Under the pieces are notes generated by a model, which saw only the letters and a program-made list of their open reading frames with translations, was not told the origin of the DNA and did not search any database. DNA of 7,036 nt, taken from the UHGV virus genome UHGV-0439402. The stretch is one strand, 5' to 3'. The first letter of the stretch is position 1. The number at the start of each line of letters is the position of its first letter. Positions 1,058 through 7,036 of this stretch are shown here, piece by piece. Both the position numbers and the translations under genes were made by a program. The DNA is from a virus.

Positions 1058-1336
1058 ATGTTAAAAATCCGTTGTTTCCTTCGTAAGTATCGGGCCGTTC
1101 CTGTCACGTCTGTGGCGGTTGTGTCCATGTCGTTCCCGGCGTTTGCTAGTGACGCTAGTCCGGCTGGCATGACTTCCCTGCTGGGTTCCTTCACGGAGGT
1201 GGCCGCGTGGATGTGGGCTGAGATTGGCAAGCTTCTTACTTGGGTTCTTGGCCAGCCTATCCTGCTCCTTGCAATGTCCCTGTTCTTTGTAGGGGCCATT
1301 GTATCATTCTTCATCCGTGTATTTCATTCTGTGTAA
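1058..1336 (+). CDS. major-coat-like protein precursor with cleavable signal peptide (MLKIRCFLRKYRAVPVTSVAVVSMSFPAFA|SDASPAG…), mature ~62 aa with acidic N-terminus, hydrophobic core, C-terminal RVFHSV
   Basis: Very strong SD AAAAGGAGGT 8 nt upstream of ATG; n-/h-/AxA signal-peptide architecture; small size and composition typical of inovirus pVIII-type coat proteins; followed by a paralog and a terminator. Confidence 0.7.
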   Translation: MLKIRCFLRKYRAVPVTSVAVVSMSFPAFASDASPAGMTSLLGSFTEVAAWMWAEIGKLLTWVLGQPILLLAMSLFFVGAIVSFFIRVFHSV

Positions 1337-1526: not shown

Positions 1527-1562
1527 TTCCTAGGGGTATAAAAGCCCCTAGGAACCTTTTGG
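1527..1562 (+). terminator. rho-independent terminator-like hairpin after coat genes (stem TTCCTAGGGG/CCCCTAGGAA, loop TATAAAAG, then CCTTTTGG)
   Basis: 10-bp GC-rich perfect inverted repeat 1527-1536/1545-1554 followed by T-run; positioned like the post-gVIII terminator of Ff phages. Confidence 0.45.
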
Positions 1563-2477: not shown

Positions 2478-2750
2478 CTACAACTTCACGTTTCCCTTAA
2501 CGTCCCCAACAATGACGCCCTTGTTGTTGTCCCCTATAACAACTCCGTTGCTGTTCTGGACGTGTATTCCCGGCTTCTCTCCTGCCTGCATGTCCTGGGC
2601 TATTAGGTCTTTGATATATCCGCTCAGTTTTGTATATCCCTTTTTATTCATGTGCGCAATGACTTCTGGATACTCTTCTTCACGGATGTAGACTTTTACT
2701 GTTTTATATACTTCTTTGTTGTATTCTCTTATATATTCTTGTTTTTTCAT
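2478..2750 (-). CDS. ribbon-helix-helix (CopG/Arc/MetJ-like) DNA-binding regulator, ~90 aa, with a C-terminal Gly/Val-rich tail (listed ORF extends to a GTG at 2783)
   Basis: MKKQEYIREYNKEVYKTVKVYIREEEYPEVIAHMNKKGYTKLSGYIKDLI fits a β-strand–helix–helix pattern (β-strand KTVKVYI). Only minus-strand gene, divergent from the small-ORF/SSB/Rep cluster and facing palindromic repeats. Confidence 0.6.
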   Translation of the reverse strand: MKKQEYIREYNKEVYKTVKVYIREEEYPEVIAHMNKKGYTKLSGYIKDLIAQDMQAGEKPGIHVQNSNGVVIGDNNKGVIVGDVKGNVKL

Positions 2751-2759
2751 AACCTCACC

Positions 2760-2835
2760 TATAGGCCTATATACAAAATTCACATATATAGGGCTATATA
2801 TTTAGTATATATGCCTATATACATATAGTCCTATA
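2760..2835. promoter_or_regulatory. four imperfect-palindromic 12-bp boxes TATA(G/T)(G/T)(G/C)CTATA at 2760-2771 (TATAGGCCTATA, perfect palindrome), 2787-2798, 2808-2819, 2824-2835; candidate operator array
   Basis: Read directly; located between divergent RHH gene and + strand small ORF; spacings 27, 21, 16 bp. Confidence 0.5.
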
Positions 2836-2880
2836 TATGTTATACTGTAGTTACAAGTTAATAAATGATACTTAAAGTTC

Positions 2881-2921
2881 CAGTAGCAATGAGAACATGG
2901 CAGTGTAGTAGTGAGAACTGG
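2881..2921. repeat. adjacent imperfect tandem repeat CAGTAGCAATGAGAACATGG / CAGTGTAGTAGTGAGAACTGG
   Basis: Read directly; overlaps the -35 of the candidate promoter below. Confidence 0.4.
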
Positions 2922-2947
2922 ACATTAGGTATCAACCTAAGTATAGC
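2919..2947 (+). promoter_or_regulatory. candidate sigma-70-type promoter TGGACA-N17-TATAGC for the small-ORF/SSB/Rep cluster
   Basis: Hexamer match 5/6 and 4/6 with 17-nt spacer, ~35 nt upstream of ATG 2981. Confidence 0.25.
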
Positions 2948-2980
2948 AAACGATTCAAGAATTTGAAAGGGGAAAATGAT

Positions 2981-3154
2981 ATGACCAAAAAGGAAAAACA
3001 GGTTTTTCAGAACTACAAGGATATTGCCAGTAGTAAGTTGGTGGAAGCGTTCAATTCTGGTGATGCTGATGCAATTACCAGGGCAACGGATTCATTCGTT
3101 CAGCTTACTTCCCTCTGGGATGAACTTAACAACATAGTGGAACAAGGGGCCTAG
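2981..3154 (+). CDS. hypothetical small protein, 57 aa (MTKKEKQVFQNYKDIASSKLVEAFNSGDADAITRATDSFVQLTSLWDELNNIVEQGA)
   Basis: ATG 2981 with AAAGGGGA SD (spacing ~7); listed ORF starts at an upstream TTG. No recognisable motif; position between repressor region and SSB. Confidence 0.5.
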   Translation: MTKKEKQVFQNYKDIASSKLVEAFNSGDADAITRATDSFVQLTSLWDELNNIVEQGA

Positions 3155-3159
3155 CCCCT
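3143..3159 (+). terminator. short GC hairpin AAGGGGC-cta-GCCCCTT overlapping the stop of the 57-aa ORF, followed by CCCCTTTAAAG
   Basis: Inverted repeat read directly; weak T-tract. Confidence 0.25.
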
Positions 3160-3295
3160 TCCCCTTTAAAGCTACTACCCTATGGGTAACGGTCACAAGT
3201 CCGTGTGAAAGCTGAGTGAAGGTTCTTTTGTTGGTTCGGTCTGTTTGTCAGTGGCTATCGAGAAACTGACGGCTGTTGTTAGGCAGAGATACTGC

Positions 3296-3325
3296 CCATC
3301 CGGGTTGATGGAATGCCCCGGATGG
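3296..3325. other. hairpin CCATCCGGG-(12 nt)-CCCGGATGG upstream of SSB gene
   Basis: Perfect 9-bp inverted repeat; candidate ssDNA structural signal (packaging or complementary-strand origin). Confidence 0.35.
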
Positions 3326-3362
3326 TACGTTGATAATAGAATAATGAAAGGAAGGTATTATT

Positions 3363-3608
3363 ATGAAAGTAAAAGTATTAGGCATTCAGTCGGTTGATTA
3401 TATCAGCCGTAAGACTGGTAACCCCGTAAAGGGGGTTACACTGCATTCAGCATTTAAGGATGCGCAGGTGGAAGGGGAATCCGTTTCCTCCATCTTCGTC
3501 AGCGATAACCTGAATGTTAAGTGTGTCGCTGAGATTCGCCCCGGTATGCTGGTTGATGTGGAATACAATAACCGTGGTTATGTCTGTGACCTGGCTATCT
3601 GTAAGTAA
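3363..3608 (+). CDS. candidate ssDNA-binding protein (inovirus gene V/G5P-like), 81 aa
   Basis: SD AAAGGAAGGT upstream; size (81 vs 87 aa), N-terminus MKVKV… (cf. M13 gpV MIKVEIK…), SRKTGNP (cf. TRSGVSRQGKP) and RPGMLVDV (cf. APGLYTV) are suggestive; adjacent to Rep. CDS itself confident, function moderate. Confidence 0.5.
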   Translation: MKVKVLGIQSVDYISRKTGNPVKGVTLHSAFKDAQVEGESVSSIFVSDNLNVKCVAEIRPGMLVDVEYNNRGYVCDLAICK

Positions 3609-3632
3609 TCTGCTTCTTTCATTTCTCCTTTT

Positions 3633-3661
3633 GCTGGCTGTCCTGTCCTGGTTCAGCCAGC
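3633..3661. other. hairpin GCTGGCTG-(13 nt)-CAGCCAGC just after SSB stop
   Basis: Perfect 8-bp inverted repeat read directly. Confidence 0.3.
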
Positions 3662-3809
3662 CCCTTGCGGACAATATCCGCATTTCCTTGTCCGCTCCCA
3701 GTTCCAGGCCAGACAGCGGTTTAGATTCGTCATTACGTGGTATGCCTACGTTGTGAAACTGTAACAATTTTTAAACTAGTTACTGCATGGATGCGCCCGG
3801 CCTGGCCGG

Positions 3810-3842
3810 GAAGTTGCTAGTATAGTATTACCTAGCAACTTC
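3810..3842 (+). promoter_or_regulatory. rolling-circle (+)-strand origin stem-loop: 11-bp stem GAAGTTGCTAG/CTAGCAACTTC with 11-nt loop TATAGTATTAC containing CRESS nonanucleotide TAGTATTAC (3823-3831; predicted nick T3829^A3830)
   Basis: Perfect inverted repeat read directly; loop matches the circovirus/nanovirus ori nonanucleotide exactly; ~110 nt upstream of a Rep with HUH motifs I-III; preceded by palindrome CCCGGCCTGGCCGGG (3796-3810). Confidence 0.7.
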
Positions 3843-3925
3843 TGTCGCAAAGCCTGACAAGCCTTGTAAAACCAGGGCCTGCCAGTCCGCGACATTAAAT
3901 TGTCGCAAAGTCGCTGTCGCGAAAA
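3843..3925 (+). repeat. iterons TGTCGC(A/G)AA: TGTCGCAAAG at 3843 and 3901, TGTCGCGAAAAC at 3915, directly 3' of the ori stem
   Basis: Read directly; related copies (TTTCGCAAATAG 4980, TGTCGCGCACC 5026, TTTCGCGAAAC 5063) recur downstream of rep. Confidence 0.45.
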
Positions 3926-3949
3926 CAAGAAATAAAGGGGAATGGGAAC

Positions 3950-4948
3950 ATGGAAAAAGATTCACAGAGCCGTAAATGGCAGATTACAATTAACAATCCT
4001 GCTGATAAGGGATTCACCCATGAAAGAATCCGGCAGGGATTAGAGTCCATGAAATCAGTTATCTACTGGTGCATGGCTGACGAGGTAGGCGAGAATGGAA
4101 CCTATCACACTCACCTGTATTTACAGGGAAAAGGCGCTGTCCGCTTCTCCACCATCAAGAAACATTTTGAAGGTGCCCATTTTGAGATGGCAAAGGGCAC
4201 CGCAATGCAGAACCGGGAATATGTCTCTAAGACTGGTAAGTGGGAAAATGATAAGAAGCATGAGACTTGTGTAGACGGAACCTTTGAGGAATGGGGCGAG
4301 ATGCCCGTGGAAAGACAAGGTGCCAGGAATGACATAGCTGACCTACACGCCATGATAAAACAGGGCTTAAGCAACTACGATATCATGGAACAGGTGCCGG
4401 AAGCAATGCTTATGCTTGATAAGATAGAACAGGCCAGGCAGACCATTGTCCAGGAATCCTATAAGACTAAATGGCGTGATATGTCCTGTTACTATATCTA
4501 TGGTGATACGGGGACAGGAAAGACACGTTCCATCATGGAAAAATACGGCTATGAACATGTATTCCGTGTTACGGATTATAGCCATCCATTTGACAATTAC
4601 CGGGGCCAGGATGTGGTCATCTTCGAAGAGTTCCGTTCCAGTTTCCGGGTATCGGATATGCTTAACTACCTGGACGGCTATCCGCTGGAATTGCCTTGCC
4701 GCTATGCAAACAAGTATGCCTGTTATACAAAGGTCTACATAATCAGCAACATACCGTTGTCTGAACAATACCGTAACCAGCCACAAGAAACATTTGAAGC
4801 ATTTCTTAGGCGGTTGAATGGTGTGTTGCACTATACGGGCCATGGTGTTGAAAAGAGTCGTATAGAGTTGATAGGAAGTGGTTTTCGCCTGTTAACAAAT
4901 GGTGAAATGACTCCCTTTGACAAAATGGAAGTGAGTATGATATTATGA
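3950..4948 (+). CDS. rep: CRESS-DNA-type replication initiator: HUH endonuclease + SF3 helicase (332 aa)
   Basis: Motif I WQITINNP (aa10-17), motif II YHTHLYLQ (aa52-59), motif III REYVSK with catalytic Tyr91, Walker A GDTGTGKT (aa185-192), Walker B VVIFEEF, motif C ISN; order and spacing identical to circovirus/nanovirus/pCRESS Reps. Confidence 0.9.
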   Translation: MEKDSQSRKWQITINNPADKGFTHERIRQGLESMKSVIYWCMADEVGENGTYHTHLYLQGKGAVRFSTIKKHFEGAHFEMAKGTAMQNREYVSKTGKWENDKKHETCVDGTFEEWGEMPVERQGARNDIADLHAMIKQGLSNYDIMEQVPEAMLMLDKIEQARQTIVQESYKTKWRDMSCYYIYGDTGTGKTRSIMEKYGYEHVFRVTDYSHPFDNYRGQDVVIFEEFRSSFRVSDMLNYLDGYPLELPCRYANKYACYTKVYIISNIPLSEQYRNQPQETFEAFLRRLNGVLHYTGHGVEKSRIELIGSGFRLLTNGEMTPFDKMEVSMIL

Positions 4949-4987
4949 TATAGATAGCAACTATATCGTTAAACTACTGTTTCGCAA

Positions 4988-5046
4988 ATAGTTGCAGACA
5001 GGTGCGCTCCTACGGGAAAATGATTGTCGCGCACCTTGCAACTACC
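4988..5046. other. long imperfect hairpin TAGTTGCA(gac)AGGTGCGC-(21 nt)-GCGCACCTTGCAACTA downstream of rep, flanked by outer inverted repeat CGTTAAAC (4967-4974)/GTTTAACG (5082-5089) and palindrome TTTCGCGAAA (5063-5072)
   Basis: Inverted repeats read directly; 16 paired positions with a 3-nt bulge. Confidence 0.4.
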
Positions 5047-5128
5047 ACCCTTAGGGATGGGTTTTCGCGAAACATTGGGCCGTTTAACGAATAGTTGGTA
5101 TTTATAACAACAATTCTATATAAATCGA

Positions 5129-5157: not shown

Positions 5158-5173
5158 ATAGGAGGTGGTTTCT

Positions 5174-6511
5174 GTGAGGTGTAAACGCTTCATGGCTGTT
5201 CTTGTTGCGCTTTCCTTATCGGTACTGTTTGTCTTTCCTGCGTTTGCATCCGTTGCTACGCCTTCCAATGCCTTACCGTCTGAATCATATCTTGGTTTTG
5301 TTCAGTCATTGGACGAATATGCGGATGTTGCAACATCCAGTAATGCGACTCTATCTCAAGATTATATGGAAACGGATGGTTTTGACGCATTGGAAGCCCC
5401 TGTCCTTATGTCGTCTGGTGACGATTCCGTTGTTAATACGGTCAATCTTACCTCTGTCCAGATGTGTCTGTCTTATTATGATATGGCTGGGGTCATCCGT
5501 TATAAGGAGGTATGGTTGGATAAGAATGGTTATGCTTCCATGTCACTTCCTTCTGACTATGCATCACCTATATGGTTTGGTTTTGTCCTGCATAAAGGTG
5601 CATTACCTCCGGCTGGTAAATATAAGATGTCTGTACATTTTGGTAGTAACACTAACATTGTATATCAGTCCAGTTCCATCTGGTTTGGTGTCAGGCGTAA
5701 TAATGTAAGTCAGCAGGAATCCAATTATTATGTTGATGGTTATTACTCCTCTGGCGATTTTAGGCTTTCTACTGATTTATCCATTGGTGCTTCTACAAGC
5801 CAGCTTAATATATCTAATTTTTTGGCTTATGACTCTCCTGCACCGCCATATGGTGGCTATGTCAGCATTAATTTTACCCGTCTTTCCGGTGATGCGCCTG
5901 TACAGGGTGGTTCCCCTGATTCCGGCAATGTTGACCAGGACATTAACCAGAGTATTTCTAATAATACGGCCCAGCAGGTGGAACAGGGTGATACTATCAT
6001 CGAATTAATAAAAAATACCATTCAGACTATTTCTTCTCAGCTTACGGCTTTTTGGAATCAGCTTGCTGGAGAGTTCACTAATCTTTACAATAAAATGAAC
6101 CAGCAACATTCTGAGCAATTACAGGCCGACCGTCAAAATACAGACGATATGATAGCCGCTGGGGAATCGAATACCACGGACATTATCAATAACAACAACG
6201 CCAATACCGATAAAATCACCAACGGTTATGATAACTCTGGTATGCTCTCTGAGAATGACCGATTAAATAATTCCCTTGATGAATACCAGAAAAAAGAGGA
6301 TGAAGTTTTTAATCAGGCAAAGGATAAAGTCAACTCGTTTGAGTATGGCAATCACTTCGATAAGTTCACGGCTCCGCTGGCTGATATATCCTTTTTCCTT
6401 ACGGGTATCTATGATGGTTTGGGCTCCTTGAATGTTCCGATTGCGTTTGCTCTTACGTTGTCTGTATCTCTGCTTGCAATCGGTTACTATCGGTTTAAAT
6501 CTGGTAGTTAG
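5174..6511 (+). CDS. pIII-like adsorption/minor coat protein P1: signal peptide (MRCKRFMAVLVALSLSVLFVFPAFA|SVATPS), N-terminal domain, N/Q-rich probable coiled-coil, C-terminal TM anchor (…PIAFALTLSVSLLAIGYYRFKSGS). Listed ORF starts at GTG 5165, which abuts the SD; GTG 5174 or ATG 5192 more likely
   Basis: SD GGAGGTGG 5161-5168; type-I topology (leader + C-terminal anchor) as in g3p; shares the YY-SGxxxRLSTD motif and SVATPS leader junction with the other paralog. Confidence 0.7.
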   Translation: MRCKRFMAVLVALSLSVLFVFPAFASVATPSNALPSESYLGFVQSLDEYADVATSSNATLSQDYMETDGFDALEAPVLMSSGDDSVVNTVNLTSVQMCLSYYDMAGVIRYKEVWLDKNGYASMSLPSDYASPIWFGFVLHKGALPPAGKYKMSVHFGSNTNIVYQSSSIWFGVRRNNVSQQESNYYVDGYYSSGDFRLSTDLSIGASTSQLNISNFLAYDSPAPPYGGYVSINFTRLSGDAPVQGGSPDSGNVDQDINQSISNNTAQQVEQGDTIIELIKNTIQTISSQLTAFWNQLAGEFTNLYNKMNQQHSEQLQADRQNTDDMIAAGESNTTDIINNNNANTDKITNGYDNSGMLSENDRLNNSLDEYQKKEDEVFNQAKDKVNSFEYGNHFDKFTAPLADISFFLTGIYDGLGSLNVPIAFALTLSVSLLAIGYYRFKSGS

Positions 6512-6984: not shown

Positions 6985-7036
6985 GTGTTCCTACTTATGT
7001 TTTCGGTTCCCGCTTATGCTTCGGTTGCTACGCCTT
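6985..7036 (+). CDS. 5' end (signal peptide MFLLMFSVPAYA|SVATP…) of a pIII-like gene truncated by the window end; in frame with 1..758
   Basis: GTG 6985 / ATG 6997 just after stop 6981-6983; nucleotide and peptide similarity to the 5174 ORF leader (gtctttcctgcgtttgcatccgttgctacgcctt vs cggttcccgcttatgcttcggttgctacgcctt). Confidence 0.5.
   Translation, partial: MFLLMFSVPAYASVATP

What the first reader, a model, noticed from the sequence alone, without database searches (positions are those of the whole stretch)
3796..3925. Canonical CRESS origin: 11-bp stem with loop TATAGTATTAC (nonanucleotide TAGTATTAC) plus TGTCGC iterons upstream of rep
The inverted repeat GAAGTTGCTAG…CTAGCAACTTC (3810-3820/3832-3842) is perfect. 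Its 11-nt loop carries exactly the nonanucleotide at which circovirus and nanovirus Reps nick (TAGTATT^AC). Immediately 3' are three TGTCGC(A/G)AA repeats (3843, 3901, 3915) and 5' a GC palindrome CCCGGCCTGGCCGGG, matching the stem-loop + iteron layout of CRESS origins. It lies on the same strand as all structural genes, consistent with the + strand being both the nicked and the packaged strand.
Basis: partly seen in the sequence, partly recalled or inferred. Interest (0 to 1): 0.85.

Follow-up and report, generated by a model that had tools for sequence, protein, structure and literature searches.

The report
Circovirus-type replication origin in a filamentous phage
The hairpin is real and is very probably the start site for rolling-circle copying of a 7-kb filamentous phage of gut Firmicutes that carries a circovirus-like Rep, a phage/Rep combination already reported, so this is a well-supported new example, not a new kind of thing.

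Summary
Observation confirmed. A perfect 11-bp stem (3810-3820/3832-3842) holds the loop TATAGTATTAC. TGTCGC repeats follow, 127 nt upstream of a Rep with a circovirus-type HUH nuclease and an SF3 helicase (3950-4948).

The window is a complete circular inovirus-like genome with Zot and small hydrophobic coat-like genes.

Interpretation supported by comparison:
- All 21 viral relatives (Rep 46-70% identical) and 52 of 65 Bacillota genome loci carry a hairpin with NAGTATTAC in the loop upstream of rep. Stem sequences differ by compensatory changes.
- The repeats sit at fixed offsets from the stem (0, inverted at 46, then 58 and about 67-74). Their last three bases change together within each genome (CGC, AAC, CGA, GAC).
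- That triplet tracks Rep residues just after motif II, even among Reps 90-99% identical.
- A related phage with an unrelated Rep_trans initiator matches both flanks but lacks 3756-4921, so ori plus rep is one swappable cassette.

Corrections: there are five repeat units, not three (one inverted, one partial), and only the first abuts the stem. The GC palindrome is not conserved. The long hairpin after rep does not depend on Rep type, so it is not the nick site.

Inoviruses with such Reps were already reported (Roux 2019, Tisza 2020). No nicking or replication was tested here.

The parts
3756..4921 (+). Replication cassette (origin plus rep). This is the stretch with no counterpart in Dulem virus 64, which is homologous on both sides.
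   Evidence: blastn of window against L024 matches 2841-3755 and 4922-5096 only. The L024 initiator is Rep_trans PF02486 and L024 has no AGTATTAC.
3796..3810 (+). GC-rich palindrome CCCGGCCTGGCCGGG just 5' of the origin hairpin. Its role is unknown and it is not conserved in sequence among relatives.
   Evidence: By eye, the upstream flanks of relatives show no common motif; this was not tested formally.
3810..3842 (+). Origin hairpin: 11-bp perfect stem and 11-nt loop.
   Evidence: Equivalent hairpins lie upstream of rep in relatives. Stem covariation is shown.
3823..3831 (+). Nonanucleotide TAGTATTAC. The predicted Rep nick lies between T3829 and A3830.
   Evidence: Exact match. AGTATTAC is invariant or nearly so in relatives. 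The nick position is inferred from circovirus biochemistry (PMC2690592).
3843..3851 (+). Iteron 1 (TGTCGCAAA), abutting the 3' arm. Together with the arm end it forms the conserved ACTTC|TGT-NNN junction.
3863..3886 (+). Conserved A/T box and flank (CTTGTAAAACCAGGGCCTGCCAGT; family consensus CCTTATAAAA.C.GGGCTTGCCAGT). It may be a promoter -10 element or a bending/unwinding element. This is unproven.
   Evidence: Alignment A4. The sigma-70 scan did not call a + strand promoter here.
3889..3894 (-). Inverted iteron (GCGACA on the + strand, which is TGTCGC on the - strand).
   Evidence: An inverted copy lies 45-54 nt after the stem in many relatives, and its triplet changes with the family's iteron.
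3901..3923 (+). Distal iteron cluster: TGTCGCAAA (3901-3909), partial GTCGC (3910-3914) and TGTCGCGAA (3915-3923).
3950..4948 (+). rep, a 332-aa HUH endonuclease plus SF3 helicase. Motif I is W10-P17 (WQITINNP). HUH is H53-T-H55. Motif III is Y91-V-S-K94 (Y91 codon 4220-4222). Walker A is GDTGTGKT, Walker B is VVIFEEF and motif C is IISN.

Best explanation
This is the plus-strand (leading-strand) origin of rolling-circle replication of a circular 7,036-nt filamentous (inovirus-like) phage of gut Bacillota. The phage's initiator is a circovirus/nanovirus-type Rep of the bacterial pCRESS kind.

Proposed mechanism, every step inferred from homology and comparison:
1. Host enzymes convert the incoming + strand to a supercoiled duplex.
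2. Rep, made from 3950-4948, binds the TGTCGC iterons through residues next to motifs I and II of its nuclease domain. The iterons are one copy abutting the 3' arm, one inverted copy and a distal cluster just before the rep ribosome-binding site.
3. Binding plus supercoiling exposes the loop as single-stranded DNA.
4. Tyr91 cuts TAGTATT|AC between T3829 and A3830. Rep becomes linked to the 5' end and leaves a 3'-OH primer.
5. The host polymerase extends this primer while the SF3 helicase domain unwinds the duplex.
6. After one round, Rep cuts the regenerated site and joins the ends. This releases a circular + strand, the coding-sense strand, which the phage's DNA-binding protein and Zot assembly machinery would package.

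The distal iterons lie between the origin and the rep start codon. They probably also let Rep repress its own transcription, as in porcine circovirus.
For: Anatomy:
- The hairpin, nonamer and iterons are as described and are non-random.

Cognate enzyme:
- Viral_Rep PF02407 at 1e-11 plus an SF3 helicase.
- Full-length alignment to PCV2 Rep 7LAR at E = 5e-14, with all catalytic motifs.

Conservation:
- Every one of 21 viral relatives (5 GenBank inoviruses and 16 IMG/VR contigs, Rep 46-70% identical) has (T/C)AGTATTAC in a hairpin loop 106-319 nt upstream of rep on the same strand.
- 52 of 65 Bacillota genome loci have the same arrangement.
- Plasmid p4M has TAGTGTTAC in an 8-bp hairpin about 30 nt before repA.

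Stem covariation:
- In 21 hairpins with 11-nt loops, 100% of cells pair and 7 of 8 pairs show double changes.
- The covariation score is 1.22, against 0.20 for shuffles and at most 0.27 for slid registers.

Iterons:
- They sit at conserved offsets, with hexamers that differ between lineages but change together at every position within a genome.
- Reps that are 90-99% identical but use TGTCGA, TGTCGC or TGTGAC differ almost only at aa 21-35 and 59-67.
- Across lineages the motif after HUH tracks the triplet..IR with CGC, GGIN with CGA, NGIR with AAC, CSNAVR with GAC.

Cassette linkage:
- Dulem virus 64 shares both flanks but has a Rep_trans initiator and no nonamer.

Mechanistic precedent:
- PCV Rep binds the right arm plus the proximal hexamers, nicks between T and A of the loop octamer using the motif III tyrosine, and represses its own promoter through those hexamers (PMC2690592).
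Against: - There is no experimental evidence for this sequence or any relative. Nicking, Rep binding, replication dependence and the packaged strand are all inferred.
- The hairpins used for the covariation count were chosen for having at least 8 perfect pairs, which inflates the paired percentage.
- The iteron-residue correlation was not corrected for phylogeny.
- 13 of 65 genome loci showed no hairpin with my strict search. Some are truncated contigs and others were not examined further.
- The consensus scan called no promoter between the origin and rep, so the autoregulation step is the weakest.
Confidence: 0.85

Rival explanations
1. The hairpin is a structural signal read in the single-stranded genome, either a packaging signal or a minus-strand (lagging-strand) origin. 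It is not the Rep nick site.
For: Filamentous phages do use hairpins in their intergenic regions for both purposes (established for Ff phages, from my own knowledge). The hairpin is stable as ssDNA.
Against: The element travels with the CRESS-type Rep and not with the phage backbone. It is missing from Dulem virus 64, which shares the flanks. It is present in non-phage relatives that carry an FtsK-type ATPase and in plasmid p4M. The loop sequence is invariant while the stems vary, which points to a sequence-specific enzyme site. A better candidate for backbone functions is the long hairpin at 4946-5110, which is conserved whatever the Rep type.
Confidence: 0.04
2. The hairpin is a transcription terminator or attenuator for the upstream operon, and the TGTCGC repeats are only operators for a regulator.
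For: It lies at the end of the upstream gene block and before rep. The repeats sit between a conserved A/T box and the rep start.
Against: No T-run follows the stem, and the terminator scan did not call it. An invariant 8-9-nt loop with free-varying stems is not a terminator pattern. The loop matches the known cleavage sequence of the homologous enzymes. An operator role for the iterons is compatible with the main explanation and does not compete with it.
Confidence: 0.03
3. It is the attachment or recombination site used for integration into the host chromosome.
For: Many relatives are integrated in Bacillota chromosomes. HUH enzymes can catalyse strand transfer (general knowledge).
Against: Integrated copies keep the hairpin intact at the normal distance upstream of rep. 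Prophages with 81%-identical Rep carry a tyrosine integrase, and their right junction lies downstream of rep and of the long hairpin.
Confidence: 0.02
4. It is a relic origin: conserved by descent, but replication in this phage starts elsewhere, for example at the long hairpin downstream of rep.
For: The downstream hairpin is very stable (z = -6.9) and contains a TGTCGC.
Against: The downstream hairpin is shared with a Rep_trans phage. Its apex motif stays GTCGCGC in relatives whose iterons are TGTAAC, so it is not matched to Rep specificity. The origin hairpin shows ongoing purifying selection with compensatory change.
Confidence: 0.03

Closest known systems
Origin of porcine circovirus 1/2 and other Circoviridae, and of Nanoviridae
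   Same: An 11-bp-class stem with a 10-12-nt loop that ends in (T/A)AGTATTAC directly against the 3' arm. Short direct repeats start at the foot of the 3' arm. rep lies downstream on the nicked strand. Rep is HUH plus SF3 (PMC2690592).
   Different: The host is a bacterium and the virion module is filamentous (Zot and small coat proteins), not a jelly-roll capsid. The iterons are split into one proximal copy, one inverted copy and a distal cluster about 58-75 nt away, not four tandem proximal hexamers. Motif II is a true H-x-H followed by LYLQ, not HxQ. Walker B uses Glu.
pCRESS elements of Bacillota and Actinomycetota (p4M-like cluster, probably pCRESS2; Kazlauskas et al. 2019, PMC6668415)
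   Same: The Rep family and host range match. p4M RepA is 33% identical, there are 65 Bacillota genome loci, and Walker B Glu is as reported for pCRESS1/2 (PMC8780604). p4M and FtsK-type relatives have the same hairpin-nonamer before rep.
   Different: That paper described the elements as plasmids without virus structural genes, whereas this one is a complete inovirus-like genome. I did not place the Rep in their phylogeny. I found no description of the origins of these elements in the papers I could search.
Inoviruses with an RCR endonuclease plus S3H Rep (iPF_00203 of Roux et al. 2019, PMC6813254; ctbe30/ctbc27 of Tisza et al. 2020, PMC7000223; GenBank bajarodino viruses 56, 2, 30, 74 and 13)
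   Same: The same chimeric architecture: Zot, an RstB-like DNA-binding protein and a CRESS-type Rep. Rep is 50-71% identical and Zot up to 79% identical to these GenBank inoviruses.
   Different: It is a different species-level genome. The only megablast hit in 50,697 phage records covers 9% of the window. In the main texts of the three papers I searched (Kazlauskas 2019, Tisza 2020, Roux 2019) I found no description of the origin of these elements, and the five GenBank inovirus records I fetched annotate no origin.
Ff-type (M13/f1) inovirus origin with gene II protein
   Same: Functionally analogous: an intergenic plus-strand origin nicked by the phage initiator, yielding the packaged coding-sense strand.
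   Different: The initiator family and the origin sequence are unrelated. There is no SF3 helicase in Ff phages.

Membership tests
CRESS-type (circovirus/nanovirus-like) rolling-circle origin | Stem-loop with a NANTATTAC-type nonanucleotide in the loop | tested here: met
   TAGTATTAC lies at 3823-3831 in the 11-nt loop of an 11-bp perfect stem.
CRESS-type (circovirus/nanovirus-like) rolling-circle origin | Adjacent cognate Rep with HUH motifs I-III and an SF3 helicase | tested here: met
   PF02407 and PF00910. Alignment to PCV2 Rep 7LAR shows motif I WQITINNP, HUH H53-T-H55, motif III Y91VSK, and Walker A, Walker B and motif C.
CRESS-type (circovirus/nanovirus-like) rolling-circle origin | Short repeated Rep-binding sequences (iterons) next to the stem | tested here: met
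   There are five TGTCGC-type units. Their positions are conserved, and their sequence co-varies within genomes and with Rep residues. Binding itself was not tested.
CRESS-type (circovirus/nanovirus-like) rolling-circle origin | Rep cleaves between positions 7 and 8 of the nonamer and replication depends on it | not testable with these tools
   This needs an in vitro nicking assay and a replication assay.
Cressdnaviricota (CRESS-DNA viruses as a virus phylum) | CRESS Rep combined with a non-filamentous (typically jelly-roll) capsid and a small genome | tested here: not met
   The structural module is inovirus-like: Zot PF05707, phrog_25712 and phrog_197, and small hydrophobic coat-like ORFs. 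The nearest GenBank genomes are filed under Tubulavirales/Inoviridae.
pCRESS2 / p4M-like bacterial Rep cluster | Rep groups with bacterial (Bacillota) Reps, with Glu in Walker B | tested here: inconclusive
   65 Bacillota genome loci at 32-70% identity. 5,955 homologues at E <= 1e-30. p4M RepA is 33% identical. Walker B is VVIFEEF, consistent with PMC8780604. No phylogeny with the published groups was made.
Inovirus-like filamentous phage (Tubulavirales) | Zot/pI-type morphogenesis ATPase with small coat proteins in a 5-10-kb circular genome with nearly all genes on one strand | tested here: met
   Zot at 1718-2476. The ORF layout. An ORF reads across the window ends, so the genome is circular. 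Structural proteins match bajarodino viruses 2 and 30.
Intrinsic transcription terminator | GC-rich stem followed by a T-run | tested here: not met
   The stem is followed by TGTCGCAAAG, and the terminator scan did not call it.

The most novel reading that the evidence does not exclude
The whole cis-acting origin, not only Rep, may be shared between gut-Firmicute filamentous phages or integrative plasmids and eukaryotic circoviruses and nanoviruses. The shared parts are the identical nonamer, its position against the 3' arm, and a proximal repeat at the arm foot. This would mean the complete ori-Rep unit was inherited when eukaryotic CRESS viruses arose from bacterial elements.

In addition, these bacterial elements seem to expose a simple, readable code. 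Three or four residues after motif II (..IR, GGIN, NGIR, CSNAVR) specify the last three bases of the TGT-NNN iteron. If real, Rep specificity could be predicted and re-engineered.
Probability: 0.4. Interest if true: 0.6.

Novelty: new member of a known kind. Interest (0 to 1): 0.4.

Why it matters
- It gives a concrete, testable origin, with a predicted nick at T3829|A3830, for a large and little-studied group of gut filamentous phages and integrative elements. About 6,000 Rep clusters are detectable in public assemblies.
- It shows the circovirus-type origin working context in bacteria, where genetics is easy.
- The natural series of closely related Reps with switched iterons offers a direct route to the rules of Rep-origin recognition. 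Those rules matter for CRESS virus compatibility, for satellites and for HUH-tag engineering.
- It does not reveal a new mechanism.

Tried and rejected
- Rfam gave no match anywhere in the window.
- PHROGs has no family for this Rep.
- An exact search for the 33-nt hairpin found nothing in IMG/VR. In metagenomes it found 3 contigs, one of which shares only the hairpin and first iteron.
- MAFFT put hairpins with different loop lengths out of register (A1). I counted covariation on the 11-nt loop-length class (A2) only; the 10-nt class (A3) was aligned but not counted. My own table covers all 49 hairpins.
- tblastn for Zot in related loci was too insensitive, and Pfam on selected ORFs was needed. 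I therefore give no fraction of relatives that are phages.
- I looked for a sigma-70-type rep promoter between the origin and rep. The scan called none on the + strand there, so the promoter reading of the conserved TATAAA-like box stays a guess.
- I considered that the TGTCGC at 5025, in the downstream hairpin, is a sixth iteron. I rejected this because relatives with TGTAAC iterons keep GTCGCGC there.
- I considered Rep-mediated integration at the nonamer. I rejected it because prophages keep the hairpin intact.
- Literature searches for 'bajarodino', for pCRESS with inovirus, and for p4M with nonanucleotide found no description of these origins.

Full report
**1. What is in the sequence**

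- The window reads GAAGTTGCTAG (3810-3820), TATAGTATTAC (3821-3831) and CTAGCAACTTC (3832-3842). The two arms are fully complementary.
- TAGTATTAC (3823-3831) is the only exact copy in the window.
- As single-stranded DNA the hairpin folds at -9.9 kcal/mol, z = -6.4 against shuffles.
- It is the longest perfect hairpin in the 7,036 bases. Only 1.3% of 300 dinucleotide-preserving shuffles contain any perfect stem of 11 bp or more.
- TGTCGC(A/G)AA occurs three times, at 3843, 3901 and 3915, where 0.07 is expected.
Four of the six TGTCGC hexamers in the window lie within 3843-3920.
- The GC palindrome is at 3796-3810 and overlaps the stem by one base.

**2. Context**

- The window is a complete circular genome. 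An ORF with a signal peptide starts at 6985/6997 and reads through the end of the window into 1-758.
- It encodes a Zot-type assembly ATPase (1718-2476; Pfam PF05707, phrog_25712 and phrog_197). It also encodes several small hydrophobic proteins, an 81-aa protein whose homologues in GenBank relatives are annotated 'RstB-like' (3363-3608), and a 448-aa secreted protein.
- Its structural proteins match bajarodino viruses 2 and 30, which GenBank files under Inoviridae. Zot is 75-79% identical.
- The gene 127 nt downstream of the nonamer (3950-4948) is a circovirus-type Rep: Viral_Rep PF02407 plus an SF3 helicase.
- This Rep aligns end to end with porcine circovirus 2 Rep (7LAR, E = 5e-14). Motif I is WQITINNP, HUH is H53-T-H55, motif III is Y91-V-S-K, and Walker A, Walker B and motif C are present.

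**3. Comparative evidence that the hairpin is functional and belongs to Rep**

Relatives of Rep came from four sources:
- GenBank phages: five bajarodino inoviruses at 50-71% identity.
- IMG/VR: 17 loci.
- GTDB genomes: 65 loci, almost all Bacillota such as Lachnospiraceae, Oscillospiraceae, Hungatella, Clostridium and Paenibacillus. Many are on contigs of hundreds of kb, which means they are integrated.
- Plasmids: Bifidobacterium p4M at 33%.

Hairpin and nonamer:
- All 21 viral relatives with Rep at least 46% identical have (T/C)AGTATTAC in the loop of a hairpin 106-319 nt upstream of rep on the same strand.
- 52 of 65 genome loci do too. The nonamers are TAGTATTAC in 38, CAGTATTAC in 7, AAGTATTAC in 4, TATTATTAC in 2 and CAGTGTTAC in 1.
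- p4M has TAGTGTTAC in an 8-bp hairpin about 30 nt before repA.
- AGTATTAC and the following C are invariant or nearly so, while the stems differ completely between lineages.
- In 21 distinct hairpins with 11-nt loops, every cell pairs and 7 of 8 pairs show changes on both sides. The covariation score is 1.22, against 0.20 in shuffles and at most 0.27 in slid registers.
- Caveat: these hairpins were selected for having at least 8 perfect pairs. The paired percentage is therefore circular. The diversity of pair types is not.

**4. The repeats behave as iterons**

- In relatives the most repeated hexamer after the stem starts within a few bases of the stem foot. It recurs at about +58, +67 and +74, often with an inverted copy at +45 to +54.
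- The hexamer differs between lineages (TGTCGC, TGTAAC, TGTCGA, TGTGAC, TGTAAA, GCACAA and others). Within a genome all copies, including the inverted one, carry the same variant. This is plain in the 12-sequence alignment of the whole origin.
- Five IMG/VR Reps that are 90-99% identical overall use TGTCGA, TGTCGC or TGTGAC. Their differences are concentrated at aa 21-35, after motif I, and at aa 59-67, after motif II. The helicase half is almost identical.
- Across 26 Reps from several lineages, the residues after HTH(L/I)(Y/F) track the iteron triplet:
  - (G/S)(G/S/A)(I/L/V)R goes with CGC.
  - GGIN goes with CGA in five of the seven CGA Reps.
  - (K/R)NGIR goes with AAC.
  - CSNAVR goes with GAC. 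This last group includes L015 and L016/L017, which sit on different backbones.
- These are the regions proposed as iteron-specificity determinants in eukaryotic CRESS Reps (Londono et al. 2010, from my memory; the related Arguello-Astorga and Ruiz-Medrano 2001 paper is cited in PMC8780604).
- The correlation was not corrected for phylogeny.

**5. A natural cassette swap**

- Dulem virus 64 (PP511650) is homologous to the window over 2841-3755 and 4922-5096 but not in between. Its DNA-binding protein is 97.5% identical to the window's.
- In that gap it carries a Rep_trans (PF02486) initiator unrelated to this Rep. It has no AGTATTAC anywhere.
- So 3756-4921, holding the hairpin, the iterons and rep, is one exchangeable unit. 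This is what is expected of an origin and its cognate initiator.

**6. The rival site**

It exists: 4946-5110 folds into a long imperfect hairpin (-43.7 kcal/mol, z = -6.9).
- It is conserved in Dulem virus 64 despite the different initiator, and in L001, L007-L010 and L033-L038.
- Its apex keeps GTCGCGC in relatives whose iterons are TGTAAC.
- In prophages it sits intact at the right end, next to host DNA.
- It is therefore a backbone element, perhaps a packaging signal, a minus-strand origin or an att-associated element. It is not the Rep-specific nick site.

**7. Mechanism**

By homology with circoviruses, Rep would act as follows.
- It binds the 3' arm and the iterons.
- It nicks TAGTATT|AC between T3829 and A3830 with Tyr91 and primes leading-strand synthesis.
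- It closes the displaced + strand after one round.

The precedents come from the PCV review PMC2690592 and from the InterPro text quoted. In PCV, Rep binds the right arm and the proximal hexamers, cuts between T and A of the loop octamer with the motif III tyrosine, and represses its own promoter through the hexamers.

The nonamer is on the strand that carries rep, Zot and the structural genes. That fits the rule that filamentous phages package the coding-sense strand (established for Ff phages, from my own knowledge).

The distal iterons lie between a conserved A/T box and the rep ribosome-binding site. They may make rep self-repressing. That step is a guess, because no promoter was called there.

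**8. Comparison with what is known, and novelty**

- Roux et al. [quoted passage not shown]
- Tisza et al. 2020 described two macaque-stool genomes that combine CRESS Rep with Zot, RstB and inovirus coat genes, with prophage matches (PMC7000223).
- Kazlauskas et al. 2019 defined the bacterial pCRESS Reps and stated that their elements lack virus structural genes. Their supplementary table nevertheless lists a Zot gene in a pCRESS2 element of Hungatella (PMC6668415).
- GenBank already holds related genomes.
- I found no paper in the searchable library that describes the origin of these elements. Even so, a circovirus-type origin next to a circovirus-type Rep is what a specialist would expect.
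- The finding is therefore a correct and well-supported annotation, and a new member of a known kind.
- The parts that go beyond expectation are three. The nonamer is identical to that of circoviruses and nanoviruses across the bacterial/eukaryotic divide. The iteron architecture is conserved and split. An apparent residue-to-triplet code links Rep to its iterons.

**9. Limits**

- Nothing here shows nicking, binding, replication or packaging.
- 13 of 65 genome loci gave no hairpin under a strict search and were not examined further.
- Membership in pCRESS2 specifically was not tested by phylogeny.

Noticed in passing
window 4946-5110: A long imperfect hairpin lies immediately after rep (DNA fold -43.7 kcal/mol, z = -6.9). 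It is conserved in relatives whatever their initiator type, including the Rep_trans phage Dulem virus 64. In prophages L093, L094 and L096 it sits intact at the right end, next to host genes. It is a candidate packaging signal, minus-strand origin or att-associated element.
   Followed up: partly
window 2841-3755 and 4922-5096 versus L024 (PP511650): There is a clean module swap. Both flanks are homologous to Dulem virus 64 (74-76% nt, 83% in the core). The stretch 3756-4921 is replaced there by an unrelated Rep_trans gene with its own hairpin. The right breakpoint lies inside the last 27 nt of the rep ORF.
   Followed up: yes
window 1058-1336 and 1345-1518: Two adjacent small hydrophobic ORFs have nearly identical C-terminal halves (...AAWMW.EIG.LL.W.L.QPILLLAMSLFFVGAIVSFFIRVFHSV). 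They look like a tandem duplication of a coat-like gene.
   Followed up: no
window 6985-7036 joined to 1-758; also 5165-6511: An ORF crosses the window ends, which shows the genome is circular. Its signal peptide (…PAYASVATPS) resembles that of the 448-aa protein at 5165 (…PAFASVATPS).
   Followed up: partly
window 3633-3661 and 3667-3695: Two tandem hairpins with 8-bp stems lie in the part of the intergenic region shared with Dulem virus 64. By eye the second shows a compensatory change there (GCGG/CCGC versus GTGG/CCAC); this was not checked with a tool. It also scores as terminator-like (3666-3682).
   Followed up: no
L093-L095 (Rep 81% identical), L096 (86%): Close relatives are prophages inserted beside the same host genes (PTS-HPr and an ATP_bind_3 protein). 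In L093-L095 a tyrosine integrase lies at the left end. None of the ten window ORFs I scanned against Pfam and PHROGs matched an integrase or transposase.
   Followed up: partly
L020, L022, L073 and plasmid p4M (L006): More distant Rep relatives (about 47% identical, iteron GCACAA) have an FtsK/SpoIIIE-type ATPase directly upstream of the origin hairpin where the phages have their structural genes. p4M has the same arrangement. The same ori-rep module therefore serves non-phage elements too.
   Followed up: partly
L023 813-836: A 2.9-kb IMG/VR contig with a 38%-identical Rep has the hairpin with CAGTATTAC on the strand opposite to rep, unlike all the phage-type relatives.
   Followed up: no
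window 2600-3000: An AT-rich stretch (GC 0.31) lies between the minus-strand repressor-like gene (2478-2783) and the next plus-strand genes. It contains TATATA-rich inverted repeats (2766-2813). It is probably a divergent promoter/operator region.
   Followed up: no
window 1527-1554: A perfect 10-bp hairpin (TTCCTAGGGG tataaaag CCCCTAGGAA) lies between small coat-like ORFs. It is the second-longest hairpin in the window.
   Followed up: no
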